Counted from the first letter of the stretch, positions 337-56,411 are shown. The stretch is 64,000 nucleotides of DNA from Antedon mediterranea (GCF_964355755.1 NC_092677.1:16576101-16640100); one strand, 5' to 3'. The notes: generated by a model from the sequence alone, not told the origin. Program-made: numbers and translations.

Positions 337-384
337 CCAAATCAAAGACATTTGTTGAAAAAAGATCAGAAGAATCAAAAGCAG
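337..384 (+). CDS. Gene A microexon, 48 nt (AKSKTFVEKRSEESKA)
   Basis: aattag|CC...GCAG|gtgagg; paralog of 21131-21178. Confidence 0.7.
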
Positions 385-2039: not shown

Positions 2040-2071
<32 letters not shown>

Positions 2072-16739: not shown

Positions 16740-19700
16740 ATGGTTGAATCAGGTAAAGTATCTGCCTATATTACATATTCGAATAAACTTCATTGACTTT
16801 CATGATCTTCCATTTATCAAAGCTTTTTGATACCATTTTTACTGTATTTTATAACTTCTTGATATTGTTTGTGGGAGTATTTATTGATTATACATGTCTC
16901 ACTCGAATAGTAGCCCCGTTAAAACCTTCAAGAACAATAAACGCACATGGACGTGTATTCGAACAAATACGGTACCATATTTTGAAAACCCCAGATTTCA
17001 CATTCTCTCCTCTTCTCACGTGATGATGATGATGATGATGGTTAAAAAGATGATATGATAATGTAGGCCGAATGATGCCTCATTTAAACAAAAAAAAATT
17101 ATTTTGCCTTCTTCATTTTCTTTGCTCATATTTTTTTCCATTTTATTCAATTTAAGGACCTATGTTATGGTCTGCAAAATAGTGACTTTAAAAAGTGTCA
17201 TGAAAGCGCTTTATTTTTTTTATGTTTCTAGAAACATCTGACAAATCTTTTAAAGAGGCTTTAGTATGTTTCTCAACTTGGTATGATGACCGATCACTCA
17301 TCAAGAAACTGAAAGTTTTGTATCAAGGTTATATTGCGGAAGCTGACATACACATTGCCTCTAAAACTATGGACTTACTGAAACATTTGACTGATTCTGG
17401 AGACTTAAGTTCAAAAGACCACACACTTCTGTATGACACCATAAAGGCCACTAAACAGTTTGCGATTGTAGACAAACTTCGAATTCACATTCCATCTTTT
17501 CCGAACATTAAAGAACGAATTATTTCAAAATTCAGTCATCATCATCAAAAAATTATGAATTTAGGAAATGAACTAATAGAAGAGGATGTGATAAAAATTG
17601 ATAATGTGTATAATGATCCACCAAAGAATTTTAAAGATGGGTGGGATCTTATACTCCATCTACGACACAAAAAAATCATTGGGGATGAAAATGACAAAAT
17701 GGATAAATTTATTGAAACCTTGAAAAATGTTGAACTACCCGGAGCTGCAGAAACTCTTACTAAAGGTATAAAGAAAATGGTTTCTTTTTTTAATATTCCA
17801 GAAGTAGGCAGACACTGCTGAAAGTATGTTTTTAAAAAAATCAAGAAATTAAAATATTCACAACGAGAGAATATTATTTTTCTAAATCAATATTACAATG
17901 TGTATTATTCTTTTTATTATCACTGTCGACTAAAACTTATGATGGCTATTAGGCCTACTCAGTGATAATTAATGAATATAGCTTTTACAAAAGTAATACC
18001 AGGAAATTACATTCATTTTTCCCTGGTTATTATACAGATTTTTAAATGTATATTCGATATTTACAGATGTCCAGATACCTGTGAGTCTGAAGAAACGCAA
18101 GAGAAAAAATTCTGAGCCTGAAGATCAAGGACCTCAAAAAAGGATCCAGGGTGAAAGTTCTAGGTCAACTACTGAAGAAAGTCCATGTATACAAAGAAAT
18201 CTTGATGGAAAACTGCGATCCTTACAAAGAACCATTGACGAAATTCTTCAATCTTTACAAAACACTCTCTCTGAAGTTAGCCCATCAATACTAAAGGCTA
18301 TTGATGAACATCAACAATCTTTATCACTTCCTGCTCTTACAGACAATTTGCCATCTGTCCTAACAACTATTGATGAAAATCTGCAATCGTTACAAAGAAC
18401 TATAATCGAAAATCTGCAATCAGTACAGAGTACTCTTGCTGAATGTATGCCATCTGTACAAGAAGATATTGATGAAAATATACAGTCTTCCTCAAGTTCT
18501 GTCAATAGAGGTAGGCCATCAGAAATAAGAAGTATTAATACAAGTCTTCAATCATTACAACGTTTCTTTAATGGAAGTCAGCGATCTTTGTCAAATGTTA
18601 CACCAAGCGCGTGTGAATTAATATTTAAACTTTACAAGAATACGATTACCAAAGATGATGAGCAAATACTATTTGTCATATTACAAAAACTGAATGATTT
18701 CTACCAAGCGCGAGGCTTTGAATTAAACAAAACAGAACATAGTTGTATCATATTTCATTTGTCGGTGATGGATCCCATTGCTTTAGAAACTCTCTGGAAA
18801 ATGCACCGAAGTGGAATGCTCCTCATAAAATTATCAGAAATATTAGTGACAAAAGAGCATCAGCAGACATTTCAAGCAGAATGGATGACATACATTGACA
18901 AGAACAAATACACAGAAGCACTTCAAATGCTTAAAAGAGGTGAGAAATAAATTTCATTGATTCATTCTAAAGAAAAGTAAAGTTTAAGTAGCATTCATTC
19001 TTCGTTAAAAACAATTTATTATGTTTTATTGTTAATTTACTTCTGATGTGTTTACTATATTGCATCATCAAAGTAAATCAAAATAATAAGTTCAAGTAAT
19101 AATTTATAGTTGAAGAGAACATGAATTAAAATATTTCACCATAAAAACTGTAAAATGTAGATCATGCACAAGAAGCTATACTGTACTATACAATATGGAT
19201 TAACACTGAATTTTCATACCAAATTATTAAAGCGAAATGCGCTTTATTTAATGTGAGATTATGTTTTGCACCCAATTATATGCTCGTGTTGTGCACATAA
19301 ATGCGCGCAAAAAAGTTTTTAACAAAAAATGCCAGAAAGGAAAACGAAAAGCAAAGGAACTAAACAATCGGGTTATCCGCAACTAAGTTGCAGCGGATAA
19401 CAAAACAAAACATTAAAAAACATCCATCTCTTGCTTCTCTGTCAATTGAAATTTGTTGTTAGGCATAATTTAAACAAACTAGCAGGTACCCGTCCAATGG
19501 ACCATCTTATAATCAGATAGTACAGTAATAATAGACAATATGCAGTATACACAAATCTATGAATGGATGTATAGTGCCGAGATGTACATTATACACAGCA
19601 TTTATATTAGAAGGAAGATAAAGTTAATATGCATACTCTTTATGCATATTCTTCTTTATATTTAAGTGATATTTGCTTTTATTCTAAAAGCAAGCAATCG

Positions 19701-22700
19701 CAACCTAATATTAGTGCTACTGTAAAATGAATGTTTGAAATGCATGCAGTCACACATAAAAACAGAATCTCATAAATATATTCATTTTTACATCTGTATC
19801 TTTTTTTCTTGTAAATATATTAAAATAATAGACGTTTATTATTTTATTGATTAATATTATTATGTCAGTTAATTTCCGTCCTCATGTTTGGTATAGACAT
19901 AATACTGCATTTCATAGTCGTCTGGTAAATTATCATGTTTTTTATAAAAGCTTCCAAAGTATGTTAATACCATTTCCGAATAGAGAACAGTGACTTAGTT
20001 GAGTCTGGTCTTCTGTTGTTCAGTTGAATTTATGTTTTCTGGTGGTGTAAGCCTAATTAGAAAGAAGTAAATATGATTTTACCTAAACTTAGGGAGACTC
20101 AGTACAACCTTAGACGTAAATACCCTTGAGTTAAAACCGAACGTTCGAAAATATTTATAACTAATTTTGGTCTTTTCAAGTCTTGAATCAAGTAAGTCAG
20201 GGAGCTTATTATAGTTTATTATAAAATCTACTTTATTATTTTGAATCGGACAAAATAAAAATTCATTTTAATTATAAATGTGCCACTCAGGTTTAAAATA
20301 ACAGCATGAACCAAACCAAAGGTTCTGAATAAAGTGGCATGAATCAAGTGATAATTATAATTATTGTGTTTGTTTAACTTATATACCTGTATAGGGAACA
20401 AATAATTAGTGTGGGTGTAAAGTTATACATTCTTGTTCTTTCACTCACTACTGTTACTATGTTGCTATGTAGGCCTATCCAATAACACACAAAAAATAAT
20501 ATGCTTAAAATGAATTTACAATTATAATGTTTTATTAAGGATAAACGATACGCTAATACTATGCTGAAAATATTCAACATAATAATCAAGAGTATTTAGA
20601 GAATAAAATCAATCAACTATACAAGTGTTCCCAACACCTGAATTAATTATGATGGCAGAGTCGGATTAAGACATCTGTGTAGAAAAATATGTATAAATAA
20701 TAACACTAAATAATACTAAATATTAGTTGGGGAGCCAGAAAGGGTTTAACTGCACCCTCTAGTAAACTATGTTAACACCGTTTTTGCCACCTTATATCAA
20801 TACAAATCAATTAGAGAAAAAAATGAGAGAAAATACTGTTTTAGTGGGATGTTTGTTTTCTGTTATTCTGAAATAAAATGGTCAATCAAGTGAAATTTAA
20901 AACAATCATAAAAATTGACTTGCTCGTTTTATTTAAGAATTAATTTTTTTCGGAATTAATTTCTGTTTAATAGTTCTAAAAGTATGTTGTATACAATTTT
21001 ATTTTCATTCATTTGCACAACATTTTACCGGCACTGGGGCTTATGAAGTGAATAAAGAAGTCGCACAATTTAGAAGATAATTGTAAAGCTATGATTCATA
21101 CATTTTAATTTATTTTATCTTATAAATTAGCCAAATCAGAGACATTTGTTGAAGAAAGATCAGAAGAATCAAAAGCAGGTGAGGTATAAGACTGTAAACA
21201 CCATACTTATTAAGTCACAAATGCAAATGGACTTGAATTCAATTTAGGTCCATACATATTTATTCTTCTACCAGCTATCAATCATTGACCACATTTTAAT
21301 TCGTAAGACCAAAACTAACTGTCAAGATTCAAGATTCAAGATTCAAGATTCAAGAAATTTTATTTGTCCATAAAAATGGAAATTCAATTTGCTTGGTAGA
21401 TTAAAACAACAATAAACAAGGCCAACAGCCATTAAGTCGCGTGCTACAATGCATAGTGATACCGGACCTACAGACAAACAGACCGACAGACAGACAGACC
21501 GACAGACAGACGGACCGACCGACATAGTGAACTATACTGACCGAAATTACTGAACATGTTTAAAAATGTTGAAATGTTTAAAAACATTTATATTTTTTTA
21601 ATTTACACGTGCGTAGCCTGTCACTTTTGACGTGCTCGTATAACGTAATTTCGAGTTGAAAAGTAAGTCAAGAAAACAGAAATCGGGCAAAAAGAGTGCG
21701 CAATAACATTTAACGCGCAGTGCGCGCGCAAAAATCTGCGCACTCATGGCAATTTTGTAAACGCTTAAAATTGCCTGAAACGTACTCTTATTTCATCGAA
21801 AATAAATTTTGAAAATTTTAAGCGCGCTTACGCATGCGTTACATGCGCTACGCACGTAATTGTATTGCCATATGATGATTTATGCCCTGAAATTTATGAG
21901 TACCAAATTTTATTTAATTGTGATTCATGGTTGTTAAGATATGACTACAAACGTGATTTCGTTAAATCGTGCGTAGACCGCGTAATTTTTTATTGCGCAC
22001 CGTGAAAACATAACCACATCGATTCCTGGCCATAAGGAATATTCTGTGAAAAATTGATTTAGCTAGATTAAACTGATATCAAGATAAGGTCATAAAGCGA
22101 TAAAACGCATAGTGATACCGGACCGACAGACAGACAGACAGACCGACAGACAGACAGACAGACCGACCGACCGACATAGTGAACTATAGAGTCGCTTCCA
22201 CGCGACTAAAAACAAACATAAACAATGTTGCAACAATTTAAACGTGCAGTATTATAACAGATTAAAATACAAGATAAAAAGTTAAAAATAAAAAAAACTG
22301 TTAAAAATGTAAAACTATTTAAAATTTGCATTATCGTCTTACATTAGAATTAACAAGGCCATATAGATGGCTGCGGTCGCGTGCTCATTAGTGTTTACCG
22401 ACCGACCGACCAACCTACCAACTGACCGAAATTACTGAACATGTTTAAAAATGTTGAAATGTTTAAAAACATTTATATTTTTTTAATTTACACGTGCGTA
22501 GCCTGTCACTTTTGACGTGCTCGTATAACGTAATTTCGAGTTGAAAAGTAAGTCAAGAAAACAGAAATCAGGCAAAAAGAGTGCGCAATAACATTTAACG
22601 CGCAGTGCCCGCCCAAAAATCTGCGCACTCATGGCAATTTTGTAAACGTTTAAAATTGCCTGAAACGTACTCTTATTTCATCGAAAATAAATTTTGAAAA

Positions 22701-25700
22701 TTTTAAGCGCGCGTACGCATGCGTTACATGCGCTACGCACGTAATTGTATTGCCATATGATGGTTTATGCCCTGAAATTTATATTTAATTGTGATTCATG
22801 GTTGTGAAGATATGATTACAAACGTGATTTCGTTAAATCGTGCGTACACCACGTAATTTTTTATTGCGCACCATGAAAACATAACCTCATCGATTCCTGG
22901 CCATAAGGAATATACTGTGAAAAATTGATTAAACTGATATCAAGATAAGGTCAGAAAGCGATAAAACGCATAGTGATACCGGACCGACAGACAGACCGAC
23001 AGACCGACCGACATAGTGAACTATAAAGTCGCGTCCACGCGACTAAAAATATGAATGCTATTTACAACGAAGGATTTTCTAGTTCTACAAAGATTTGCTC
23101 TTGGAGGTCGTAGCCTAATACCTGATCTATTTAAGTTATGTAACGGATGAGTGGGGTCTTTCATAATATTGTTTACTTGTTTTAAAATACTCTTTTCATA
23201 GATAAATGAACAAGGCGTTAGGTCAGCTTTAATAATACGTTGTGCAATTTTACGTGGTCTCTCAATATTTTTCTTATCATTTTCAGTAAAGTTACCATAA
23301 AAACATCCAATGCTAAAAGATAAAATACTTTGAATAATACTTTGATAAAATAGAATTAAAATAGTGTTATCAACCCTAATTTGCTCGAGTTTTCTGAGAA
23401 AGTAAAGCCTTTGAGATGACTTCTTGGAAATCATGAGAGAGTTTGACTCCCATTTTAATTTGTTGTCAATTATAGTACCTAAGTATTTGTATTGGGTTAC
23501 TCTTTCAACCTCGGTTTCTTTAATAGTTATTATATTATGTTCAACTGCGGTTTTACGAAAATCAATACAATTAAAGTGAATTTGGACCACTTCACATCAT
23601 TTCGGTTTGAACAATGGCATATAACTGTAACGTAGCTAAACTGATCTTTAAATTGTCTCTTGTTTCATCACTGAGTCTCTGACATACGGAACTCTACCTC
23701 ATCAGTAGAATAAATGTTTTAGAAACAGAATCCTTCACAAATTCACAAACTCTGATTTCACTAAAGTTTAACCGATATATTTTACCATGCAGGTTAAAAT
23801 GATTACCGTATTTCTTTGTTACACATTTGTTTAGCACCCTCATTTTATTTTTTTAATACAGTTTAATACAGTCCAATACTGTTTCACACACACACATCAA
23901 TGTGTACTTCATCCATAAACCAGGAGGTACACCTTTACATAGTAGATCTTTTTGTGTTTCATGACCATTAAAATTACTTGCTCATGCTCATTCTATGGAC
24001 TAAATACAGTATACAGTTGTAAATGTAGAACAGAGGAAAATGGTGTAATGCTAAATTAACCTACTGTAAAGCCTATTACTGGAATGTATTTTTTTTTAAT
24101 TAATAGAGAAATCACACGATGCATCGTATCAGTCACTGAAGAAGGGATTACCATTCAGTTATGAACCAAGTGAAATAAAGTTATTACCAGGTGAATTACA
24201 GTTATTTCAATTCAGACCAATTACAAATTGCTTTTATTGGTAGGCATGTTTTAAGGTGCATATTTTAGCCAAATCCTTCAAATTGTGATAATATTTTGAA
24301 ACTTTGCACAGTTATTCATTAGGGTGTCAAAAACATGAAATGGAAGGGTTGCACAAAATTTGGTCAGGAGAAAGCTGCCATTTTGGATTTCAAAATGGCG
24401 GACCCCAAATTCTCACTTTTCAGGTATATCTCTGCTAAAAAGGCACCTACAGTTCTGATTTTAGGTGCAAATTATATGGTAATGGGGTCACCAAACATAT
24501 TGGTATAACTAACATTTTGATTGCATGGCGGCCTTGTTGGATTTCAAAATTGCGGACTTCAAATTTTCACTTTTCAGGTATATCTCTGCTAAAATGGCAC
24601 CCAGAGTTCTGATTTTAGGTGCAAATTATATGGTAATGGGTCATCACCAAACATATTTGGTATTTAACTAACATTTTGATTGCATGGCGGCCTTGTTGGA
24701 TTTCAAAATGGCGGACTTCAAATTTTCAAAATGTTTCAGTACGGTACCTACATTTATAATTTTAGGTACAAAGTATAATATGGTATTGAGCTCCAAACTG
24801 GACCAAATTTGTTGCCGTCCTTCCTCCATCCTCAGTTCGCTGGGTCCTGTTCACCTCTGAAGGCATCTAGACAGTTGTACCACTTCCTGTCTTGTAGAAC
24901 AGACTGTTTCACTTCTCTTAATGCCCCAAATGTTGGGGGGATATTTTCAATAGTCTTTCCCGTTGTTGTAAAAAGATATCGTCTTGCATTATTTACCTTC
25001 TTTCCATTAAATGTCTGCAGTACATAGTTACAACAAACTGTTCTAGATAATCTGTGTCTGTCTCACTAGCTAACATCCCCTACAGACAATGGAGTGTGGA
25101 GCACTGTGGCGCATTGGACTTGCAATCAAGAGGTTGCTGGTTCAAGCTCGGCCGGTCACTGCAGTGTTGAGTCCTTGAGCAAGATTCTTTATTATCCACA
25201 TTGTTCCTCCCCACCCAGGTGATAGAAATGGGTACCGGTATGTAAAAGTACTGGAAAGGTAAATCAGACTCATTTGTGAGGGAGGAGTGGCGTACCCCCC
25301 ACAAACATACACACTAGTGGAGTCTGGCCCAAACGCTAAAGAAATGGAGATGGCACCACGGCTATTAGCATTAGCTTAAGTTTCTACACTTTACATTACA
25401 GACAATGACATCCTATCGAAAACTGAAGTCATACATGGCATCTTTTTCCAAGTCTCGTTAAATGTAGCTTTACCCTTTCCTTGAACAGATGAAGTTGTAT
25501 CACAACCGCTAAAGAAATGAAAGAACAAGTAAGTGGCTGGTGCTTGTGGTCCAAGAGAAGAAGCAATCTCGTGTATTGGGATGTACCTACTTGAAGTGCT
25601 TCCCCTCTCCAAACTCGATCAAAAGCTCGTGGATGGCAGGTATTCTGTGGAAAGCTGACAATGCAATTTGAAATCCACCATTTTGAAATCCAAAAATTGC

Positions 25701-28700
25701 CGCCATGCATTCAAAATGTTAGTTAAATACCAATATGTTTAGTGACCCCATTACCATATAATTTGCACCTAAAATCAGAACTTTAGGTGCCTTTTTAGCA
25801 GATATACCTGAAAAGTGAAAATTTGAAGTCCGCCATTTTTAAATCCAACATGGCCGCCATGCAATCAAAATGTTAGTTATACCAATATGTTTGGTGACCC
25901 CATTACCATATAATTTGCACCTAAAATCAGAACACAATTGATTTGTATATATGTGTGTGTGTGTGTGTATGTATATAGCTCTGCTAACTTTTCTGGCTGT
26001 TTACTTTATCGTTTTGATTTAGTTTTTCGCTTTTTTTGTATCTCCATTGAGATCCAGCCACTGATACCCAGAGCATTGTCATTTTTTTTTCAGTTATTTG
26101 CCTTTGGATTTATATATATTTGTATATATATATTTATATATTCTTTGCCTGATTTGTTTATATATAAATATTGTATATTTATATATATATATATGTAACT
26201 GAAAATAGTCTATATAGGCTATATATTTATATTATATTTCCTCATCTTTATCGTTTCAAATTAATTAATTAACATTTCAGTATATCGCCGGGCTGTTTAG
26301 AATTAATGTTTATTGTCTGATGAGTTTGTGTGTATGTATGTATGTATATATGTATATATACATATATATAGGTGTGTGTGTACATATATGCATATATAAA
26401 CAAATAAATAAAATAATTAAATTAATGTTAATGTTCTTTGCCTGATTTGTTTATATATATAAATATGTGTATTTATATATGTGTCTAACTAAAAATAGTC
26501 TATATAGGCTATATATTTATATTATATTTCCTCATCTTTATCGTTTCAAATTAATTAATTAAAATTTCAGTATATCACCGGGCGGTTTAGAACTAATGTT
26601 TTTTGCCTGTCGTGTTTATATATTATATTAATGAAATGTATTATTTGTAACTCGTACTTACTTTTTTTAATACCTTATTCATTTGTTTATTATTGAATGA
26701 AAGAAAGAAAATAAATGTTTACGTTGAGTTGAGAACTCTAGCTAGGTGCCTTTTTAGCAGAGATATACCTGAAAAGTGAACATTTGGGGTCCGCCATTTT
26801 AAAAACCAAAATGGCGGCTTTCCCCTGACCAAATTTTGTGCAACCCTTCCATTTCATATTTTTGACACCATAATGAATAACTTTGCAAAGTTTCAGAATG
26901 TTATCACAATTTGAAGGATTGGTTCACTTAACAGGCCTACAATGAAAAGAGTGAAGCAAGCATAACATTACGGTACCAGTAAAAAAAAAACTTTGTTTTA
27001 TTTATGATGTTTACTAATCATTCAAAGTTATCATTTATGTCTTTTAGAAGAATCCAATTATTCGGTGCATCCTAAATGGCCAAGCAGATTGTATACTAAA
27101 TCCAAATTTATTTTTTGTTATGACTTTCACAAAAATATTGTTCCTGTGCTCATAACTACTGTTACTGTCTTTATTTCAATAGAGGAATCAGAAGGTGTAT
27201 CAGAAAGTGTATTGGAAGGTGTATCAGAAGATGTATCAGAAGGTGTATTGGATAGTTCCACAAAGGAATTTCCATACGGTTCTAAAATACAAGAATTAAG
27301 TGGGTCAGGTGAGCATATTATAGTTTGTGATTTTGAAATCTACTTTATTATTTTGAATCAGACCAAATAAAAATTCATTTGAGTGATAATTAAATTTGCC
27401 ACTCAGTTCTAATATAAAACAGCACGAACCAAAACAAAGGGTCTGAATAAAGTGGTATGAATCAAGTGATAATTTTAATCATTATAATTATTACTGATTA
27501 AATATTGCTTTTAATCAATTATGAAACTGATTAGTTAATAGTAATTAACCTCCTGTAAAGCATATTAAATTGTGGTGTTATCTTGATTTTAATAATAATA
27601 AAATCGGAAGGGAAATTATATAAGTCAATGGAGGAATTTCCAATCGGTTCTGAAATAAAATGGGATAAAGCAAGTGAAACAAAGTTATTACAAGGTGAGT
27701 TAATAATAGTTATAATCTGTTACTATAAAATCTACTGTATAATTTTAAATCAGACAAAATGTATTTTATTGGAAATAGAGTAAAAAAGTGGTCAAATCTA
27801 CTGGTTCAATATTACTTTTTAAGTTATGATACAACTAATAATATTATTTGATTACTATATAATGGTTATCATTATTATTTTTTAGGAGAATCTGTGCTGC
27901 ATCCCAAATTGCCCATCGGATATGATAAATCCAAAACAGGTAAGTTAATACAGTTTGTTTATCACATTACATTTATTTTCTGCTGTTTGTGTGTGTTTAT
28001 TCTGGTATAAAAAAGATAGAGAATTTAGCCAAAAGTTAAGCAAATCTAGTACCGACTATGGTAACATAAGTTAATTGTTGTGTGGGTGTAAAGTTATACA
28101 TTCAAATAATAATATACTTAAAATGAATTGACAATATAATGTTTTATTATGATTACTATATGCTAATACTCTGCTGAAAATATTCAACATAATAAATCAA
28201 GAGTATTTAGAGAATAAAATCATCAACTAACTACACACGTGTTCCAACACCTGAATTAAATATAATGGCAGAGTCGGATTAAGAAATATGTGTGGGTGTA
28301 AATAAAAAATATGTATAAATAATAACACTAAATAGTAATAAATATATATCCTATGAAGAACATTTAACATTCATGAATTTTGTGTATAATGTTGTGGTTG
28401 ACTAATTGCCACTACGGCAATGAGAAAATGGGAAGTATGCGAAAAAGAGTACTCTGTATTTTAGGTAATAATAATTCTTATTCAAATCAATATAATAAAC
28501 AAAACATAATTCAAGATTACAGGAGACTAAAAAGCTTTTTTATCCTGGCATTTCCCTTTATTTCTTCTCATATCTTATAGACCGGGCGCCCGGAAGATTT
28601 ATTCATGTGAAAAGATACAAAAGGTTTGATGATGTAGTTAGGTGCGTATTAGGGCGAGATGCAATATTCGAAATTGCTGCCGGGTCACAGCCTTTACATA

Positions 28701-31700
28701 GGGCCTGTGGGGATCATAACATAGGGGGGTAAAAATCCATTTATTTATGTGAAGCGATACAAGGATAAACTTTTTTGGATATCATTCGCAGTGGGCTACT
28801 AATGATTACATCACCAATGACAGCAACTTTATCCTGTACGGGGCGCCAAACAGCAACATTTTAGGGCCACCCCCTAATGGGTTTATTCATGTGAAGCGAT
28901 ACAAGGTTGAATCTTTTTTTAATGGCAGCAGTATATATTGGGGATGACAAAAACACCAATGACAGCAACTTTATCCTGTACATAAGCTCAGACAGCAGCC
29001 CTAAAGGTCCGCAGTTTCCCCCTATTCGGCTATATACTCGGCGCGTATGTCGTCTAATGGCGTTCAGCTGAGTTAGAAATACGTGATACGGACTCGGACT
29101 GACAATAAATACTGGTAAGGTATAGATTAGACTATCGATTGCACACTATTATTGTATTTTTAATTCAATTTAAATTAAAAAAAAGTAACCGTTTTCATGT
29201 GAATTAGACTGATAAAAACCAACAAATAACTTAATCTGCCAACATTTTAAACATCGTTACTTGTCCATAATGGATCGACTACTGTATCGATTACTGCACA
29301 TTGTTTTACTTTAACTGAAACAAAGTCAAATTTTTAATTGTTACTGTACTAATATTAGACAGTGATATCTGATAAAAGGCAACATTAATTAATATTAATA
29401 ATACTGAACCAAATTAAATATCGTTACTTATCCACAATGGATCGACTACTGTATTGGTTATTGCACATTATTTACTAACTAACATAAGAAAGTGATATCT
29501 GATAAAACGCAACAAACTGAATCGAATTAAATATCGTTACTTAGTATCCATAATGGATCGACTACTGTATTGATTACTGCACATTATTTTACTATAACTG
29601 CCCAAGTCAAATTTAAAATTGTTACTGTACTAACATTAGACAGTGATATCTGATAAGATGCAACATACTCAGGACCAAATTAAATATCGTTACTTATCCA
29701 TAATGGATCGACTACTGTATCGATTATTGCACATTATTTTACTATAACTGCCCGAGTCAATTTTAAAATTGTTACTGTACTAACATTATACAGTGATATC
29801 TGATAAAATGCAACATACTCAGGACCAAATTAAATATCGTTACTTATCCATAATGGATCGACTACTGTATCGATTATTGCACATTATTTTACTATAACTG
29901 CCGAAGTCAAATTTGAAATTGTTACTGTACTAACATTATACAGTGATATCTGATAAAAGGCAACATTAATAATACTGGACAAAATTAAATATCGTTACTT
30001 ATCCACAATGGATCGACTACTGTATTGATTATTGCACATTATTTTTCTCTAACTGAACCCAGGTCGAATATTTTAAATGCAGTGTAACTACCGACACACT
30101 GTAAAAGCACAATTGAGCAAAGACATCGAGGTTACTGGCTGTATGCATTAAATAACTGAATATTGTACATTCATCATATTCCATTGTTACTAGCTAAAAA
30201 GAATACACGATATAATAAAACCAATAGGGGCTATTGTATTTCTTTTTACATGATTTGTGACAGCGTCATTTATAAATTTGATTATATCACACTGTAATGA
30301 TACTGGATTCTGCTTGCCAACTATCTATGGATCAAATAGTTCAGTATTTACATTTGATATATTATACAATATTTACTTCAAAACTGTCAAATGTTTCATG
30401 TAAACGATTAAAAACTATTAAATCAGCCGTAATGCATAATCTTTTTAGTTTATCTATTCGTCATCATCACAGTCACTTTCACTGTCATCACTCCAAGGTT
30501 GGTCATCATCGATTTCAGCTTCAAAATCTATTATTTCAAGTTCTTCATCATCAGTTTGTTCCAATATTCCTGCATCAGTATCGTCAAGAACTTTGTTCCG
30601 AGTGTGGATCACTAGTCAACGGATCTGGTAGAGCATTTCCATCAAACCATTTCGGTACATACCTTCCATCACCATTATCAACCCATCCATAGTTTAATGG
30701 GCGTAGGTTTTGTGTTGGCTGAGGAGTATGAGCGTGTTTCCACATAATAGATACATAATTTGCCCTCAACAGATGCTGAGTGATTGTGATTTCACATGGT
30801 GGCAATGACGAACAGTTGATCTTCTTGACTTTCTTCTTTCCAGTTGTCATTTTGCGAAACGATTGGTACCTGGCCTCATTAATACTGTTCATGCTTTTAA
30901 ACCCATATATCTTGCATACATAGGCAGTGACTGCGGGTTTGTCCATCCTGTCACCACAAAGCGATCGCAATGACTTGCCTTTGCGGTAAAATCCAGTATC
31001 ATTACAGTGTGATTTTAATCAAATTTATAAATGACGCTGTCACAAATCATGTAAAATGAAATCCAATAGCCCCTATTGGTTTTATTATATCGTGTATTCT
31101 GTTCAGCTAGTAATAGAATATGAGGAATGTACAATATTTAGTTATTTAATGCATACAGCCAGTAAACTCGATGTCTTTGCTCGTTGTGCTTTTACAGTGT
31201 GTCGGTATGCAAAATATTCAACCTGGGTTTAGTTGGAGATAAGTAACGATATTTACGGTGGCCCACAACTGTCACGCACACTATAACACAGAATCACACA
31301 ATTAAAGAAGGAATTACACAATTAAAGAAGAAATCGCACAATTAAAGAAGAAATCGCATATAAAGAAAAGAAAGCATGAAAATATAAAACGAAATGCACA
31401 AATAAAAAAGAAACGCGCAATTAAAGAAGAGCTAAGCACAATTAAAGAAGTCCGCAACAAATTCGAAAGCTCCTCGCACAATTAAAGAAGTCCGCAACAA
31501 ATTCGAAAGCTCCTCGCACAATTAAAGAAGTCCGCAACAAATTCGAAAGCTCCTCGCACAATTAAAGAAGTCCGCAACAAATTCGAAAGTACCTCGCACA
31601 ATTAATAAAGTACAGTAGTCAGTATGGAACGCCATCGCTGCCTCCGGCTCTTTTACTATTACGTTCGGCTCTTTTAAGCATTCAGCGCATTTCTATTCGG

Positions 31701-34700: not shown

Positions 34701-37700
34701 ACCTAACTACATCATCAAACCTTTTGTATCTTTTCACATGAATAAATCTTCCGGGCGCCCGGTCTATTACTACTTTATCAGATTCTGTAAATAAACACTA
34801 CAACATTTTTTTTTATGTAAAAGGAAATACTAAACGATAATCTAAACAGCCTATATTATTTAGTAGATTTAAAATGTATTTAAAATATTATATTAAAGCA
34901 AAAGGCAATATATCGCCTCTTAAACAATAATAAATATTGGGTTCATGTGCCCTGACTACTCTGATAGTTCAATGTCGCAAATAATGTATATATTATCTAT
35001 TGTACGTTTGAATAATAGTTTAAAAATATGAATCATAAAATAGTTTAAAAGGCAACACATTGAGACAGAAATGCAAAGATTTAAACAAAAGTTTTTGTTT
35101 TATTTTTTAGGTAACCTTATTGAGTACGGTATGTAAAGATGAAACTTATTCTGTTTTATACATTTAAAAATATACATTTATAAAAATGAATAAGGAGTGT
35201 GTAATTTTAAGTTACAATTAATTTGCACAATGTTTCTACACAAAATAAGATTTTTTTTCCGAAGAACACATTCATAAATTGTTGTTTTATATCTTTTAGC
35301 TCAATCGGAGACATTTATTGAAGGAGAATCAGATGAATCTATTGAGTCAAAAACAGGTACTGTATGATATTAGTATACAGCATATTTAATATGTTATGAC
35401 ATCAACAATATTATATGACCACTATTAATTATTTGTTAATTTCACATATCAAAGCCAAGTCTTTTGTATGTTAAACTTTCCAGTACCAAAAGTTATAACA
35501 GTAAACTAGATTTTAACTTTTCACTAACGCAACGTACAACATGCACACTAGCTGTTAAGCTAGGCCTAGGCTACACTAAAGTGCATGAACAGCTTATAGA
35601 GTAGCTGTAGGCATTTCGGCAGTGTCTTGATCAGAAAGAAATAAACAAAGGAGTGGAGTTGTGGCCTGGTGGTTATGATGCTTGGCTGCCAATCCAAGGG
35701 TCCTGGGTCCTGTCCTGTCATATGTCAGGATTTTTTGTAATGACAATTTACAACTCCACTCCCAAAGACTTGTAATAAAGACTTTGTTTATGTAGAGCAT
35801 TGTGTGTATATGTTTGTCTCGTGAACGGATTGCCACCTTTAAGAAGGATAGTGATTGAATTTGCTTATGGTTATCCTTGGCAATTTGCCTAAATATATAA
35901 AATAAAAATAAAGTTGACAACGGATGAAAAACTTTGAGAAACAAAAAAGACATAAATCTGTGACTTTATTAGAAAGTGTCTTTAATCTATAAAAAGAAAG
36001 TAATTCTATTTGAGAGTGATGAAACAAAACATCTGATTATTAAATAATTCCCTGACACAAAGATGTACTCAGTAATACACTGAGTAGTTAAATTATCATA
36101 TATTCAAATTATTATTATTAGCTAGATCGCAAGATGGTCCCACTACTTATGTCAAATATTAGTGTATATTATAAACCTGATTTTAAATTCAATTATTTTT
36201 TTTCAAAATAAAATTAATGACTTTTTTAAGCCTTTTTTAAATATTATGAATACAGTTATGAAATCAGTGGATTTATCCTATACACCAAATGAAGTAATGG
36301 ATCTTGCAGACAAAAACGAGCTGTGTGGAGGTTTGTGAATATACCTTACTTGCTTCAACTTTAGAATTACACAAACTAACTATTTAGCTATGAACAATGA
36401 CCAGAATCTCTAACAAATGTTGGCAGTAATTAACGAAAGTGTTTCAATTCTTTATTAGAGAAATCAGATTATTTATCCGATTTACCAACTGAACTATTTT
36501 CAATCAGTATTAAAGAGAAACCTGAAGTTGAATCAGAAACATGTGAGTTTTTACATTTGTAATATAATATACCGTTATTTATTCAGAACATCCTAAAACC
36601 AGATTTTATGGTAAACAAAATGATACTGTACCGAGCGTTTGTTATAGTATCAACCCTTTTAATGGTTTCTATGATACTGTACTTATGACAATTTAATTTA
36701 ATTTCTACTTTGAAAACCATTATGTGAATTGGTAACATTGGGCACACTATTGTGTGTAAAGTAATTGTTATCACTTTTTCCCCGTTCATAGAAAAGTTTC
36801 AGAACTGAAGTATCATTACCAGAAAAAAGCAAATCGTTAGCTTGGTACCTTAGTTTTAGTTCAACTATTGGCGAGATTAAAAATGCCTTGAATGAGCAGG
36901 ATAAAACATATTTATACTTTTTTTTACATAATGTATTAATATATCGAGTCTTTAATTATTAGAGAATTTTAGATTTTCACGTATACCATATTAGTCCAGG
37001 AGTATTAGGCTTTGAGGTAGAAATAATTATGCTAAAGCTAAATTTTTCAGGATAGGTCCCTAATGTTGTCTAGAACAGCATACTAAAAGTCCTCGGATTT
37101 CACCGTGATCTCCAGAGGGAGGGCTTAGATACAACAATTTTAATTTAAGATGACCAAAATATCACAGAAAAATGTCATGATTGACAGAATCATATTATCA
37201 TTCATCAGTATGAGTATGAAGCCAGCCATGAGAGGTAAAATTCATTCAAATTTGCTCAGATGATAAATAAACAGAAAAACTAAGCCCCGAATTTGAACTA
37301 TAAATCTGAAGATATATTTTACTGTCTGTTTAGGCTTTATTCATCGGTAATCAAGCAAATTTATTATTTATTTATTTATTAAATATTAATATTATAAATT
37401 AATCCTACGAGAAATGCCACGCCTTCTCTATATGGCTAATGTCCATGTTTAAACTTTGAAGCTATACCAATTCTGAAATGTTTCCTCTTCTCCAGTGCCA
37501 TTTAATCTATAGCTTCTACTGATTGATTTGGCACATACTAATTGGTCAATTTTTGTTTTTATTGAGCCGGACTATTATACTTCTTGTGTATATAGGTCTT
37601 GAATACATAATTCATCTTATAACATCTATATATAAATTTACTTAAGGGCAAAATTCGGTAAATCGCGCGTTACTTCTAGAATGTTTACCCGAAGGTATAT

Positions 37701-52700: not shown

Positions 52701-55700
52701 AACGTATGACGTGCACGTGGCCTTTGCGCTGCGGATAACCTAACTCGTCCGAAGTGACGAGTTCAAATCTAGTTATTTTTCTTTTTCTCTTTTTTTTTCT
52801 ATTTTCTTCTTTCTTTCCACAAATTTTGTTGCTAGTGTATTTCTAAATCTTCTTAACATAACATTGTATAACTTTATCAGAAGATTGACCTCTATCTGAA
52901 GATGTCGTAATAAGGTTTTCAGTCGCGTCCGAGTTGCGCAGCGTAAGTTACGCGCGATTTTATGTATTTCAATGATTGATCATAGAATAAAAACTAAAAG
53001 TTTTTTTGTATTGAAACTTGGTGAAAATTGAAGTCATATAATGCGCAAACATTCTATGGATTAAAAATTGCATGTTTCACAAAAGTTACGCGCGCACGCG
53101 CGTTTAAAATTTTAAAATGCGAAAAATCAATTTCTAATCAACTTTCTACGCGTTTCATGTCATTTTGAGCATTTCAAAAATTCCCACGCGTGCGCAATTT
53201 TTTTACGCGCGCGTGCGCACGTAACGCAAAAACATCATTTTTTTGCTTGATTTTTGTTTTTCCTGTCTTTTTTAGTAAATTTACCAACTTTCAAACAATT
53301 TCAACTTAAAATCACGTCATACGAGCACGTAGAATTAAACAATTTACGCGCATTTTTGTTGAAAAAGTTCAAAAATTTGTCAAAATTATGCCTTTTTTTA
53401 AACAGTCATAGATTCTAAACTACGTGGTGAACTTTTTTTAAATTACATATTCTGAATGTAGATGAGTTGTAGATATCGAATCAATCATCGATTTGGCTAA
53501 TCGGACATTGTGACGTCATTGTATGGCCACACGAATATCAAATATAGGATTTTTGTCTCTTTCGTCATAGCTCATCACATTTAATAGAGCGCATCTCCAC
53601 TTATCCGTATTCCATTTCCCCCCATTTTTATATATTGTCTAGGTCAATCAATTATCTTTCGATTTATTCACCATTTTTAAAATTGTTATGACGTCATCAT
53701 GTCCAAAAGCGTCAATAACTTTGGTCACTTATTTTCACCTATTCTGCACTGTATGTAGTACGTATACAGTATATAGTGTATACCGTATATACTTAGACGT
53801 GACACAAAATAGAGGGCGCACTAACATTTTTTTCAGTGGCATAATCGTTTTTCTGCACGCAATATTCTAACGTATGACGTGCACGTGGCTTTTGCGCTGC
53901 GGATAACCTAACTCGTCCGTAGTGACGAGTTCAAATCTAGTTACCAGTTCGTATTATACTGCACCTCCTGAAGAAGAAACATGTTTAATAGCTAGCCGAG
54001 TGACCGAGCGGTTGAGGCAGGTGGTAATGTAATAAGAAAGTATTGATATAAACATCCCAGTAACTTTTTTATTTTTTAGCTGACCTGAGTGATTTTGTAA
54101 AAATGAAATTTGAACAAAAACAAATTTCTGTCAAAAGAGAAAGTGAAGAATTATCAAGAGCAATGGAAGATATGCAAATTACAAGTAAAGGTTGGTATAG
54201 AAATAAAATAAAATTGTAAAACAAAAAAAATATTTTCAATTTAAGTAGAATGGGTCTTGTCCTGGCTATCTGTTTCAACAAAATTGCTTAGTTTCTAAAC
54301 TTTAAAAAAATACTAATGACACAACCTGCTTATCATGCAATCAATGACATTTGCATAAGCACTCATTTTGTAGGTACGTCAATGTTGAATTAATGAAATC
54401 TAGTAACTCAGAAATTAGGATAAAATCAAAGGTTACCATGATTTATATTCTAGTAAAGGTTTTGGTTTTTAATTGGTGTGTCTTACTGTACTAGTAATAA
54501 ATCTAAATATATGACGATGAAGATGACAACGACTACGACTATGTAAATGTCAACAACAATTCAACACGTCAGAGGTTTTGGAGATTAGGTTGGCAAACAT
54601 TGAAGTCTAACCTAAATGTTGTATTTTTTTTTTAAGGGACTTATGACAGTCAACACTTTATATCACATCCAATTTCAGTGCCAGATGAAGCTGTCATAGA
54701 AGAAATATGTACTTCTTTGAGTATTTTCTACATATGTGTATTAATGCCCCATGAGAGTGCAATCACAGATACAAACATCATAAGTTCATTGGAAAGAATA
54801 GAAGTCAAGTCCCCATTTTTTAGCTGGATTAAAACTCAATCACAACGTTGTCTAACAGAGGATATTGGGAGAATGATTGCTCATTGTATACTTGTTTTAG
54901 AGAATGAAAGTAACTTTTTATCACAAGTTGCAGAATTATGTACTGATGATGTTGTAAAGGGTCTATCTAATGAATTACATAAATTTAATTTTGAATACAA
55001 TATTCACAAATTCACGCTTAGATTTGATAACAGTGTAAGCGCATCATTTTTAATTCATCTATTAAGTAATGCACCCAGACTTCATGAGCTTAGTTTAAGA
55101 TATGGGGGAAAACAAGTAAGTAATACTTTAATGAACACTGTTGATATTCTATCTAGAGACATGTTTGTGTTTGAACTCCGTCATCTTGATATCAGCAAGA
55201 ATAACCTAAGTGATGTCAAAGGTACTTCACTAGCTATGTTACTGTCTATTTCCCCTAAGCTTAGAGAACTTGACATCTCTTCTTGCAGTTTATCAGGTGC
55301 TATTGTTGATTGTATGGCTAGTGAGTGTGTTAGTAGGAAACTAGTGTTGGAGTTGGATCATTTTGATATCAGCTGGAATAATCTAAGTGATGTCAAAGGT
55401 ACCTCACTAGCTATGTTACTGTCTAATTCCTGTAAACTGAGTACCCTTAACATCTCTAATTGCAGTTTATCCGGGGATATTGTTAATTGTATGGTCAGTG
55501 AGTGTGTTAGTAGGAAATTAGTGTTAGAATTAGATTATCTTGATATCGGCTTGAATAATCTGAGTGATGTCAAAGGTACCTCTCTTGCCTTACTACTGTC
55601 TATTTCCCCTAAACTGAGTGACCTCCACATGTTCAATTGCAGTTTATCGGGTCCTGTAGTTGATTGTATGGTCAATGAGTGTGTAAGTAGAAAGCTAGTG

Positions 55701-56411
55701 TTGGCTATGTGTAATCTACTTATCAGCTGCAATAATCTGAGAGATATCAAAGGTACCTCACTAGCCATGCTACTGTCTATTTCCCCAAAACTAGGATCGT
55801 TTCACATCTTTGATTGCAGTTTATCAAGTACAATTGTTGATTGTATGGTGAGTGAGTGTGTAAGTAGAACATTAGTGTTACCGTTATGTAATCTACTTAT
55901 CAACCGCAATAATCTGAGTGATATATCACTTGTTATGCTACTATCTGTTTTTCCAAATCTGAGATACCTTGATTTTTCTAATTGTAGTGTACCGATTGCT
56001 ATTGTAAATTGTTTGATCAGGGAATGTGTCGAAAAGAAACTTGTGTTGCAGATAGATTACCTCAATATCGGCTACAATAACCTTTGTGATATCAAAGGTA
56101 CATCACTATGTATGCTACTGTCTATTTCTCCTAAACTGAGAAACTTTAACATATCTTCTTGCAGTTTATCAGGTGCTATTTTTGATTGCATGGTCAGTGA
56201 GTGTGTTAGTAGGAAACTAGTGTTGGAATTAATTTCTCTTAATATCAGCCATAATAATCTGAGTGATATTGAAGATACCTCACTAACCCTGCTGCTGTCT
56301 ATTGCCCCTAAACTGAAATACCTTTACATGACCGAATGTAGACTACCTGATGCTATAGTTAATAATATGAACAAACAATTTACTAGTATAAAAGGTACAT
56401 TTACGCATTAG
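16740..56411 (+). CDS. Gene B: tandem-DED / TRADD-N-like / microexon linker / LRR protein (NACHT-less NLR-like), about 1,258 aa if all exons are used
   Basis: Exons 16740-16752 (ATG), 17232-17765, 18067-18939, 21131-21178, 24107-24190, 27183-27308, 27886-27939, 35111-35128 (tentative), 35300-35356, 36459-36542, 54080-54190, 54637-56411. All junctions are phase-1 GT-AG; sum 3777 nt, open frame. Confidence 0.75.
17232..17765 (+). CDS. Gene B exon encoding two tandem death-fold (DED-like) domains
   Basis: FKEALVCFS...IKKLKVLY...MDLLKHLTDSGDLS..DHTLLYDTIK and a second HQKIMNLGNELIEEDV...WDLILHLRHKKII...FIETLKNVEL fit the DED helix pattern; ctag|AA...AAAG|gtataa. Confidence 0.75.
18067..18939 (+). 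CDS. Gene B exon: KKRKRK NLS-like patch, amphipathic LQSLQRTIDE repeats, C-terminal TRADD-N-like domain
   Basis: 289-aa ORF; SCIIFHL...ALETLWKMHRSGML...LSEILVT resembles the invertebrate TRADD-like N domain; tacag|AT...AGAG|gtgaga. Confidence 0.75.
19236..19410 (-). mobile_element. Internally deleted relative of the Helentron-like family in the 42.9-53.9 kb array; paralogous remnant at about 2608-2758
   Basis: ggttatccgc...gcggataac hairpin, plus atgcgctttatttaatgtg matching the array core in reverse. Confidence 0.5.
21131..21178 (+). CDS. Gene B microexon, 48 nt (AKSETFVEERSEESKA)
   Basis: aattag|CC...GCAG|gtgagg. Confidence 0.7.
21414..22211 (-). mobile_element. DINE-1/HINE-like non-autonomous Helentron, copy 1
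   Basis: Minus-strand 5' ttttagtcgcgtggaagcgact hairpin, (GTCK)n microsatellite, subterminal cacgcgact repeat and 3' stem ending ggccttgtt. Confidence 0.75.
22352..23049 (-). mobile_element. DINE-1/HINE-like non-autonomous Helentron, copy 2
   Basis: Near-identical body to copy 1, same terminal structure. Confidence 0.75.
24107..24190 (+). CDS. Gene B microexon, 84 nt (EKSHDASYQSLKKGLPFSYEPSEIKLLP)
   Basis: taatag|AG...CCAG|gtgaat. Confidence 0.7.
24241..26939 (-). mobile_element. Non-autonomous Academ(X)-like DNA transposon
   Basis: TAG...CTA termini, long TIRs with about 160-bp subterminal repeats, XPG-like remnant FHFFSGCDTTSSVQGKGK (25391..25612). Absent from the paralogous intron at about 898. 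No TSD discernible. Confidence 0.75.
25090..25380 (+). mobile_element. tRNA-derived SINE inside the Academ-like element
   Basis: A/B-box-like head (tggacttgcaatcaagaggttgctggttcaagc), then a conserved-domain-like body gtccttgagcaag...ccacccaggtg...aaatgggtacc. Confidence 0.65.
27183..27308 (+). CDS. Gene B microexon, 126 nt, with internal 12-nt (EGVS) repeats
   Basis: caatag|AG...TCAG|gtgagc; EESEGVSESVLEGVSEDVSEGVLDSSTKEFPYGSKIQELSGS. Confidence 0.7.
27599..27694 (+). pseudogene. Microexon copy with a mutated acceptor (AG to AA)
   Basis: Near-identical to 7126-7221 with an intact gtgagt donor, but preceded by aataa instead of aatag. Confidence 0.65.
27886..27939 (+). CDS. Gene B microexon, 54 nt (GESVLHPKLPIGYDKSKT)
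   Basis: ttttag|GA...ACAG|gtaagt. Confidence 0.7.
28578..34766 (-). mobile_element. Foldback-like non-autonomous Academ(X) transposon with 3-bp TSD TTA
   Basis: TIR tagaccgggcgcccggaagatttattcatgtg at both ends; TTA at 28575-77 and 34767-69; empty site tcTTActgctttatcag at about 8691. Transposase C-terminal remnant INEARY...LPPC...HLLRANY..IMW...YGW (30584..30970). Confidence 0.88.
31254..32973. mobile_element. IS3EU-like non-autonomous foldback element nested in the Academ element
   Basis: TACGG...CCGTA termini; 6-bp TSD GATATT (31248-53, 32974-79); arms of about 0.6-0.8 kb with 40-bp and 20-bp tandem repeats. Confidence 0.82.
35300..35356 (+). CDS. Gene B microexon, 57 nt (AQSETFIEGESDESIESKT)
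   Basis: cttttag|CT...ACAG|gtactg; same family as the 48-nt exon. Confidence 0.7.
36459..36542 (+). CDS. Gene B microexon, 84 nt (EKSDYLSDLPTELFSISIKEKPEVESET)
   Basis: tattag|AG...ACAT|gtgagt; same EKS start as the other microexons. Confidence 0.65.
39700..39972 (-). mobile_element. APE-endonuclease fragment of a CR1/L2-type LINE
   Basis: LTETWL...RCNKRGGGVAIFV motifs in ORF 39749..39961. Confidence 0.8.
41600..42568. mobile_element. 969-bp MITE with about 130-bp TIRs and a 9-bp TSD (Mutator-like)
   Basis: gcgattttttttttcgtacataagttgggg mirrored at the right end; TSD gtcccggtt at 41591-99 and 42569-77. Confidence 0.88.
42898..53940 (+). mobile_element. 11-kb stacked array of Helentron/HINE-like elements: 9 bodies of about 1.15 kb and 11 5' head modules
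   Basis: Head is the ggttatccgc-acttg-gcggataacc hairpin plus a T-tract. Each body ends gcggataacc, stem-loop aactcgtc-cgtagt-gacgagtt, CTAG, at 44286, 45431, 46822, 48035, 49176, 50409, 51555, 52772 and 53940. Confidence 0.85.
54080..54190 (+). CDS. Gene B penultimate exon, 111 nt (DLSDFVKMKFEQKQISVKRESEELSRAMEDMQITSK)
   Basis: ttttag|CT...AAAG|gttggt; homolog of 4115-4225. Confidence 0.75.
54637..56411 (+). CDS. Gene B terminal exon: helical region plus RI/NLR-type LRRs (7 A-type repeats)
   Basis: 577-aa ORF paralogous to 9787..11802; in-frame phase-1 acceptor tttttaag|GG. Confidence 0.9.

What the first reader, a model, noticed from the sequence alone, without database searches (positions are those of the whole stretch)
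16740..56411. Tandem NACHT-less NLR-like receptors: DED-DED + TRADD-N-like + modular linker + variable LRR
Seen: one open phase-1 exon chain joins a tandem death-fold exon, a TRADD-N-like exon, microexons and an NLR-type LRR exon. No exon or ORF with a Walker A/NACHT region lies between them, or upstream of the gene A LRR exon. Known: animal NLRs place a NACHT between effector and LRR, and tandem DEDs are typical of caspase-8/cFLIP. Inference: this is a duplicated family of NTPase-independent sensors, adaptors or decoys linking LRR recognition directly to DED signalling. The helical stretch before the LRRs (RMIAQCVLVAENES) may be a leftover of the post-NACHT helical domain.
Basis: partly seen in the sequence, partly recalled or inferred. 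Interest (0 to 1): 0.85.

Follow-up and report, generated by a model that had tools for sequence, protein, structure and literature searches.

The report
Feather-star immune receptors lacking their ATPase
A feather-star gene is predicted to splice cell-death signalling domains to the binding half of an NLR immune receptor whose ATP-driven switch is absent, and because its predicted binding face changes fast it likely senses foreign molecules by a simpler, still untested route.

Summary
This feather-star window has a 13-exon, all-phase-1, stop-free chain (1283 aa): tandem DED (caspase-8 fold, Z 17.6), TRADD-like_N domain, Ser/Glu-rich microexons, then an NLR-type helical cap with LRRs. A crinoid NACHT profile finds nothing in six frames.

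An Antedon mediterranea gene model (XP_071948676.1) has the same order without NACHT, so the architecture is not peculiar to this locus. All 15 NACHT-less cap+LRR sequences from two genera plus this window form one branch among 20 NACHT-bearing crinoid NLRs. Concave LRR positions show dN/dS about 1.8 against 0.3 elsewhere.

Two corrections. Tandem DEDs are the normal effector of crinoid NLRs (16 of 21). Death-fold+TRADD-N+LRR proteins without NACHT are already tabulated for a sponge (PMC8195603 supplement).

No transcript was available, so splicing and function are inferred. Verdict: a new variant of a known kind, likely an NTPase-free sensor scaffold.

The parts
16740..16752 (+). Gene B exon 1 (candidate start, MVES, phase 1)
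   Evidence: ATG plus GT donor; start not proven by RNA
17232..17765 (+). Gene B exon 2: tandem death effector domain (177 aa)
   Evidence: Pfam DED E 3.3e-5; AF2 pLDDT 94.6; caspase-8 tDED Z 17.6; 57-73% identity to Antedon proteins
18067..18939 (+). Gene B exon 3: TRADD-like_N domain; a predicted first strand (residues 2-9) lies about 180 aa before the rest, across a mostly helical insert
   Evidence: ESM Atlas 0.93 to PF20694 clusters; AF2 secondary structure; best match P0016
21131..21178 (+). Linker microexon (48 nt), 96% identical to gene A 337-384
24107..24190 (+). Linker microexon (84 nt), 95% identical to gene A 765-848
27183..27308 (+). Linker microexon (126 nt; an open 261-nt form from 27048 is also possible)
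27886..27939 (+). Linker microexon (54 nt), 94% identical to gene A 7418-7471
35111..35128 (+). 18-nt candidate microexon; likely a decayed copy of the 54080 exon
   Evidence: the block 34768-35146 matches gene A 3774-4145
35300..35356 (+). Linker microexon (57 nt)
36256..36330 (+). Linker microexon (75 nt)
36459..36542 (+). Linker microexon (84 nt)
   Evidence: weak match to the P0016 linker, 4 of 500 shuffles as high
54080..54190 (+). Conserved helical linker exon (111 nt), seen in many NACHT-less relatives
   Evidence: matches P0016 551-580, 0 of 500 shuffles as high; motif found in 7 of 12 relatives examined
54637..56411 (+). Gene B last exon: short linker, NLR-derived helical cap (about 145 aa), 6.5 two-LRR units of 59 aa, stop
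337..7471 (+). Gene A linker microexons (337-384, 765-848, 991-1050, 2373-2462, 3391-3456, 4115-4225, 6224-6313, 6779-6838, 7418-7471)
   Evidence: all AG/GT, open, phase 1
9815..11802 (+). Gene A last exon: helical cap and 7.4 two-LRR units; tandem paralog of gene B
   Evidence: 56% identity in the cap region; 3' flanks homologous

Best explanation
Gene B is predicted to encode an intracellular receptor in which tandem death effector domains and a TRADD-N domain are spliced, through a flexible microexon linker, to the helical cap and LRRs of an NLR that likely lost its NACHT ATPase once in feather-star ancestry, and it likely works as an ATP-independent sensor scaffold. Shown: the domains, the absence of NACHT, the kinship of cap+LRR with crinoid NLRs, and excess amino-acid change at the concave LRR positions. 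Inferred: (1) the concave face binds a changing foreign ligand; (2) with no nucleotide switch, clustering by a multivalent ligand or partner brings the tandem DEDs together; (3) these would nucleate DED assemblies with FADD- or caspase-8-like proteins, while TRADD-N would recruit a TRAF, giving cell death or NF-kB-type signalling; (4) the phase-1 exons would let effector modules and linker length be swapped.
For: Colinear NACHT-free gene model in Antedon mediterranea: P0016 residues 1-134, 141-411, 551-580 and 595-892 map in order to exons 17232, 18067, 54080 and 54637. Four further NACHT-less loci join DED and/or TRADD-N to the same cap+LRR (P0009, P0019, P0035, P0021). Two of these have NCBI isoforms that differ by 13-51-aa blocks outside the domains; such isoforms usually rest on transcripts (my recall of the pipeline). 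Tree of cap+first LRR: 14 of 14 NACHT-less rows on one side of a 99/99 branch against 20 NACHT-bearing rows; 15 of 15 with gene A, SH-aLRT 100; both genera are inside. A profile of the first ~26 residues of the LRR exon ranks the stretch just before the first NACHT-module helix in the top 10 sites in 11 of 15 scorable NLRs (rank 1 in 3), against 0 of 9 for the stretch before the cap, which suggests an internal deletion. Among 10 full 59-aa units, the 10 concave x positions give dN/dS 1.84 (column bootstrap 1.29-2.67) against 0.29 for the other 49, and 0 of 20000 random column sets were as variable. The cap core is under purifying selection between A and B (dN 0.20, dS 0.42). Roles of tDED in DED assemblies and of TRADD-N in binding TRAF2: PMC11874512 passages and PMC8195603 passages.
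Against: No transcript joins the exons; the DED and LRR exons are 37 kb apart with a 17.5-kb repeat-filled intron between them. The window's tDED groups with P0001/P0002/P0003, which carry no LRR, rather than with P0016 (unstarred branches), so the N-terminal module moves between genes. 8 of 13 NACHT-less loci are modelled without DED or TRADD-N. Within gene B alone the concave dN/dS is only 1.12 (6 pairs), and repeat units are not independent. Microexons A versus B show no clear purifying selection (dN 0.13, dS 0.16; flanking introns about as similar). The tree has no non-crinoid outgroup and no AU test was run, so 'nested' depends on the root. The junction signal is weak and may reflect linker composition. 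P0014 shows that NACHT-free models can also come from broken or mis-modelled NLRs. No ligand, partner or activity is known.
Confidence: 0.45

Rival explanations
1. The protein is a sensor partner of NACHT-bearing tandem-DED NLRs: its variable LRR binds the ligand, and a canonical NLR supplies the ATP-driven ring through DED-DED or cap contacts (sensor-helper logic).
For: It shares the tDED and cap with canonical crinoid NLRs. NACHT-less and NACHT-bearing Antedon models (P0040, P0041) lie on a contig of the same length, 36,192,472 bp. It would explain how signalling survives loss of the switch.
Against: No interaction was tested. The P0040/P0041 NLRs are the most distant relatives in the tree. 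The protein keeps, and has added, effector domains of its own.
Confidence: 0.2
2. The protein is a decoy or brake: its tDED caps DED filaments like cFLIP-short, or its LRR soaks up pathogen inhibitors aimed at true NLRs, without signalling.
For: No oligomerising ATPase. cFLIP/vFLIP tDEDs are among the structural matches (Z 13-15). A bait would also show a fast-changing concave face.
Against: A brake on host adaptors would not need a variable LRR. Caspase-8 tDED scores above the FLIPs (Z 17.6 against 13.3-15.1), although fold does not give function. The family gains extra effector modules (TIR pairs, several tDEDs).
Confidence: 0.2
3. The DED/TRADD-N exons and the LRR exon are separate transcription units, or gene B is a decaying copy; the chain is open only because all exons are phase 1.
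For: The DED-TRADD-N module sits on other C-termini in relatives (B-box, ZU5, Roc, TIR, coiled coil). 8 of 13 NACHT-less loci are LRR-only models. Two gene-B microexons have lost splice sites. Large transposon insertions interrupt the locus.
Against: P0016 is colinear over all four conserved exons. P0002's B-box half has no match in the window. The three large exons are stop-free. Gene A has the same microexons upstream of its LRR exon.
Confidence: 0.12
4. The cap+LRR has taken a non-immune role, such as a PRAME-like ubiquitin-ligase substrate adaptor.
For: The top ESM Atlas look-alikes of the cap region are PRAME clusters, at 0.81-0.82.
Against: Those scores are in the range that shuffled proteins reach a third of the time. 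Sequence homology to NLR caps is direct. Death-fold effectors are attached.
Confidence: 0.03

Closest known systems
Invertebrate DED/Death + TRADD-N constant unit with variable C-terminus (Kaur et al. 2021, PMC8195603; passages, section 11, supplement file 4 in part)
   Same: Death-fold + TRADD-N N-terminal unit fused to many C-termini in marine invertebrates, echinoderms included (DED+DED+TRADDN in Apostichopus). Amphimedon rows such as Death+CARD+DED+TRADDN+LRRs and Death+CARD+Death+Death+TRADDN+coiled-coil+LRRs have no NACHT, beside a CARD+DED+TRADDN+coiled-coil+NACHT+LRRs row.
   Different: No crinoid rows were found ('Anneissia' occurs only in an alignment file). No LRR architecture appears in the echinoderm rows read (part 65 of 109). 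In the parts read, the paper does not derive those LRRs from NLRs by NACHT loss or test selection.
Crinoid tandem-DED NLRs (e.g. XP_033104364.1, XP_033103043.1, XP_071965210.1; database models)
   Same: Same tDED family, same helical cap, same two-LRR repeat type.
   Different: They keep NACHT, winged helix and most of HD2 (about 450-500 aa) that this clade lacks; none of the 21 had a TRADD-N hit.
Caspase-8 / cFLIP / viral FLIP tandem DED
   Same: Fold and relative orientation of the two DEDs (TM 0.70-0.75; Z 17.6).
   Different: 11-19% identity; no caspase domain; fused to TRADD-N and LRRs.
PIDD1, ribonuclease inhibitor, and plant truncated NLRs (recalled, not tested here)
   Same: LRR plus death-fold signalling without a STAND ATPase (PIDD1); a stand-alone NLR-type LRR horseshoe (RNH1; RI chains top the PDB sequence hits of a profile containing relatives' LRRs); NLR fragments acting as regulators.
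   Different: PIDD1 uses ZU5-UPA autoproteolysis, RNH1 has no effector domain, and plant TN/TX forms lose the LRR end rather than the central ATPase.

Membership tests
NLR (animal) | NACHT NTPase with Walker A/B | tested here: not met
   Own crinoid NACHT HMM best E 0.55 in six frames; no plus-strand Walker A motif; exon junction contiguous in contigs
NLR (animal) | N-terminal death-fold effector | tested here: met
   tandem DED
NLR (animal) | C-terminal LRRs homologous to NLR LRRs | tested here: met
NLR (animal) | Post-NACHT helical region before the LRRs | tested here: met
   last part only; aligns with 20 NACHT-bearing crinoid proteins; no Pfam HD2 hit
NLR (animal) | ATP-dependent oligomerisation on ligand binding | not testable with these tools
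   no NTPase domain to drive it; needs biochemistry
Invertebrate DED-TRADD-N expansions (PMC8195603) | Death-like domain followed by TRADD-N | tested here: met
   weak Pfam PF20694 hits in two of eight homologs (E 0.015, 0.007)
Invertebrate DED-TRADD-N expansions (PMC8195603) | TRADD-N (RRM/ACT-like) fold confirmed structurally | tested here: inconclusive
   AF2 gives strand-helix-strand-strand-helices-strand order, but fold searches were filled by the helical insert
Invertebrate DED-TRADD-N expansions (PMC8195603) | Lineage-specific expansion with variable C-termini | tested here: met
   B-box, ZU5, Roc, TIR, coiled-coil and LRR C-termini in Antedon and Anneissia
Invertebrate DED-TRADD-N expansions (PMC8195603) | Assignment to the DEDD2 or NCOA6 clade | not tested
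   no reference sequences of these clades were held
cFLIP / caspase-8 | Caspase or pseudo-caspase domain, or short tDED-only form | tested here: not met
   no caspase hit in the four exon ORFs scanned or in the colinear homolog P0016

The most novel reading that the evidence does not exclude
Feather stars maintain an expanded, fast-diversifying class of NLR-derived pathogen sensors that signal to DED assemblies with no nucleotide switch at all. They arose by one in-exon deletion of the NACHT module before Antedon and Anneissia split and were then re-armed by phase-1 exon shuffling (tDED, TRADD-N, TIR). This would be a natural demonstration that NLR recognition and death-fold signalling can run without the STAND ATPase.
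Probability: 0.35. Interest if true: 0.78.

Novelty: new variant of a known kind. Interest (0 to 1): 0.55.

Why it matters
The NACHT domain is held to be what switches NLRs on and builds their signalling ring (PMC2858798, passage). A conserved, selected clade that lacks it but keeps effector and LRR, with close NACHT-bearing relatives for comparison, makes it testable what the ATPase is needed for, and whether ligand clustering, a helper NLR or a decoy role replaces it. It also shows that NACHT-based NLR censuses would miss a part of the echinoderm receptor repertoire. The impact is limited by the published sponge analogues and by the lack of any functional data.

Tried and rejected
No whole genome was held, so copy number and gene A's 5' end could not be checked.

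RNA: no RNA holder listed. Run X1, guessed to be RNA, covers introns and repeats and crosses the 36331-36458 intron unspliced, so it behaves as DNA, and no exon-exon joint was among the 15 joints shown of 216. This is no evidence on expression either way.

Homodimer prediction for the exon-3 product gave no verdict (0.15 and 0.20, mark 0.32).

The idea that the 54080 exon is the pre-NACHT helix was tested and not supported: no positive-scoring hit in 22 NLR-type proteins.

Fold searches of the exon-3 model found only generic helical bundles; its profile had no PDB sequence hit. Sequence search of the tDED against PDB found no DED, so DED surface motifs were not compared.

Microexon matches to the P0016 linker are mostly not above shuffles: 2 of 17 at 0/500, 4 more at 10/500 or fewer.

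The 1.2-kb intronic array was checked for hidden LRR cassette exons: none convincing.

Rows left out of the trees: isoform duplicates (P0031, P0051, P0052, P0053); P0014, P0039 and six distant ENA proteins, where the cap was not matched; gene A (frame error, fixed).

Literature: eight searches listed no paper on a crinoid NACHT-less NLR clade; most hits were seen as listings only. Supplement file 4 of PMC8195603 is cut in storage, and I saw 30 of 1337 'LRR' places plus part 65 of 109, so an echinoderm or other DED+TRADD-N+LRR row may have been missed. Subscription papers on sea-urchin and amphioxus NLR repertoires were not read.
Full report
Origin. The window is AT-rich animal DNA. All eight longer homologs of the death-fold exon come from the feather stars Antedon mediterranea (45-71% identity) and Anneissia japonica (35-45%), so this is a crinoid, closer to Antedon. 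No genome was held.

Observation. Thirteen exons from 16740 to 56411 have AG/GT ends, are all phase 1 and give 1283 aa without a stop. Exon 17232-17765 folds with pLDDT 94.6. Its best matches are caspase-8 and FLIP tandem DEDs (TM 0.70-0.75; Z 17.6, rmsd 2.6 over 165 residues, with single death domains and pyrin domains at 8.5 or less). Exon 18067-18939 ends in a TRADD-like_N domain. AlphaFold predicts a strand at residues 2-9, about 180 residues before the rest of the domain, across a low-confidence helical insert that among relatives only P0016 and P0002 share. That this strand completes the domain is my inference from the strand order. The linker (219 aa) is 17% Ser and 17% Glu. The last exon holds a helical cap and 6.5 two-LRR units; gene A's holds 7.4. 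A and B are tandem duplicates sharing microexons, intron blocks and 3' flank.

No NACHT. A profile from eight crinoid NACHT-to-HD2 regions scored best E 0.55 on the window. Full-length NLRs such as P0027 match the window only by their tDED (residues 2-174) and cap+LRR (from about 694-705), with nothing between. Contigs from three runs of one sample cross 53941-55298 unbroken; that sample may be the window's source, so this guards against misassembly only.

Is it one gene? No RNA run was listed, so this is inferred. The strongest support is P0016 (XP_071948676.1), whose tDED, TRADD-N exon, linker helix and cap+LRR map in order on the window's exons, with no NACHT. Of 13 NACHT-less loci found, five carry DED and/or TRADD-N upstream (P0009, P0016, P0019, P0035, P0021, the last with two TIRs) and eight are LRR-only models. 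One of the eight, P0020, shares a contig length and neighbouring locus number with a DED-TRADD-N-TIR model, P0006, and may be a split model (inference). Against: the same N-terminal module sits on B-box, ZU5, Roc, TIR or coiled-coil C-termini in other genes, and the window's tDED is nearer to those than to P0016. P0002's B-box half is absent from the window. I put the single-gene model at about 0.85.

Descent. An unfiltered search with the cap region found 17 proteins: 8 NACHT-less and 9 NACHT-bearing; those looked up are all crinoid. In a tree of cap plus first LRR, 14 NACHT-less rows (Antedon, Anneissia, gene B) lie on one side of a 99/99 branch against 20 NACHT-bearing rows; with gene A it is 15 rows at SH-aLRT 100. 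The root is a midpoint or six distant crinoid NLRs, so loss rather than gain rests on that root and on NACHT-LRR being the general animal state. The start of the LRR exon resembles the linker just before the first helix of the NACHT module: top-10 site in 11 of 15 scorable NLRs of 18 tried, rank 1 in 3 (two of these near-identical), against 0 of 9 before the cap. This suggests a deletion inside one large exon, but low-complexity composition may contribute. A parallel idea for the 54080 exon failed. Sixteen of 21 NACHT-bearing relatives have tandem DEDs and none has TRADD-N, so the tDED type is shared with NLRs, and TRADD-N came with the shuffled module.

Selection. In 10 full 59-aa units from A and B, variation piles up at the x positions of LxxLxIxxN and LxxLxIxxC. 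These positions face the concave side by established LRR structure; I had seen the column entropies before fixing the set. dN/dS there is 1.84 (bootstrap 1.29-2.67) against 0.29 elsewhere; within A 2.87, within B 1.12. Units exchange sequence, so this is indicative, not a formal test. The cap core is conserved (dN 0.20, dS 0.42); the microexons show no clear constraint (dN 0.13, dS 0.16).

Mechanism. The best reading is an ATP-independent sensor scaffold (0.45): a variable LRR binds a foreign ligand, clustering replaces the NACHT ring, the tDEDs nucleate FADD/caspase-8-type assemblies and TRADD-N recruits a TRAF. Only the parts list and the selection pattern are shown; each signalling step is inferred from vertebrate homologs (PMC11874512 passages; PMC8195603 passages). 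Rivals are a sensor that borrows a canonical NLR's ring (0.2), a decoy or brake (0.2), separate or decaying genes (0.12) and a non-immune adaptor (0.03).

Known context. Kaur et al. 2021 (PMC8195603; passages, section 11, supplement in part) describe death-fold + TRADD-N constant units with variable C-termini in marine invertebrates, and tabulate many Amphimedon proteins with LRRs and no NACHT. The architecture is therefore known in kind. PMC2575513, PMC11508797 and PMC2858798 (passages) discuss DED-NACHT fusions and loss of N-termini or LRRs; the passages seen do not mention loss of NACHT. Eight searches listed nothing on this crinoid clade. What is new here is the evidence that such a protein derives from an NLR by NACHT loss, is kept in two genera, and varies at its binding face. 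It fails NLR membership but descends from NLRs and may work like one at the recognition end.

Verdict.

Noticed in passing
window:42900-53940: Nine tandem units of about 1.15-1.4 kb inside the 17.5-kb intron, each ending in a short hairpin followed by CTAG and a T run; this looks like an array of non-autonomous Helitron/Helentron-type elements (label recalled). No LRR cassette exon found in it.
   Followed up: partly
window:28577-34767: A 6.2-kb stack of nested inverted-repeat elements (outer arms 293 nt, 97% complementary) with a transposase-like fragment at 30587-31018 on the minus strand.
   Followed up: no
window:58200-64000: SCAN-domain gypsy-type LTR retrotransposon region (SCAN, aspartyl protease, integrase zinc finger), with a 100% identical direct repeat at 59421 and 62626 and an in-frame stop just upstream of the long gag ORF.
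   Followed up: no
window:54679-55548 (loose ends in laid contigs): Both samples hold a third paralog whose loose-end letters translate to peptides resembling P0016's cap more than gene A or B does (read by eye), so the family has at least three members in this species.
   Followed up: no
window:17473-18938 (run X1, record 1): A 92%-identical contig skips 17661-17928 (the end of the DED exon with its donor) and its match stops at the exon-3 donor: a paralog or allele with a deletion, and possibly, but unshown, a spliced product.
   Followed up: no
window:18069-18938: The TRADD-N domain appears split by an insert of about 180 aa with repeated LQSLQRT-like heptads, found only in P0016 and P0002 among relatives.
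   Followed up: partly
P0014 (Anneissia XP_033121416.1): A second NACHT-free DED-LRR model with a different break (it keeps the pre-NACHT start and loses the cap), with three isoforms: either an independent loss or a broken NLR.
   Followed up: no
window:5156-6139 and 23021-23596: A 97-bp minisatellite (10 copies) in a gene A intron and a LINE 3' fragment on the minus strand in gene B.
   Followed up: no
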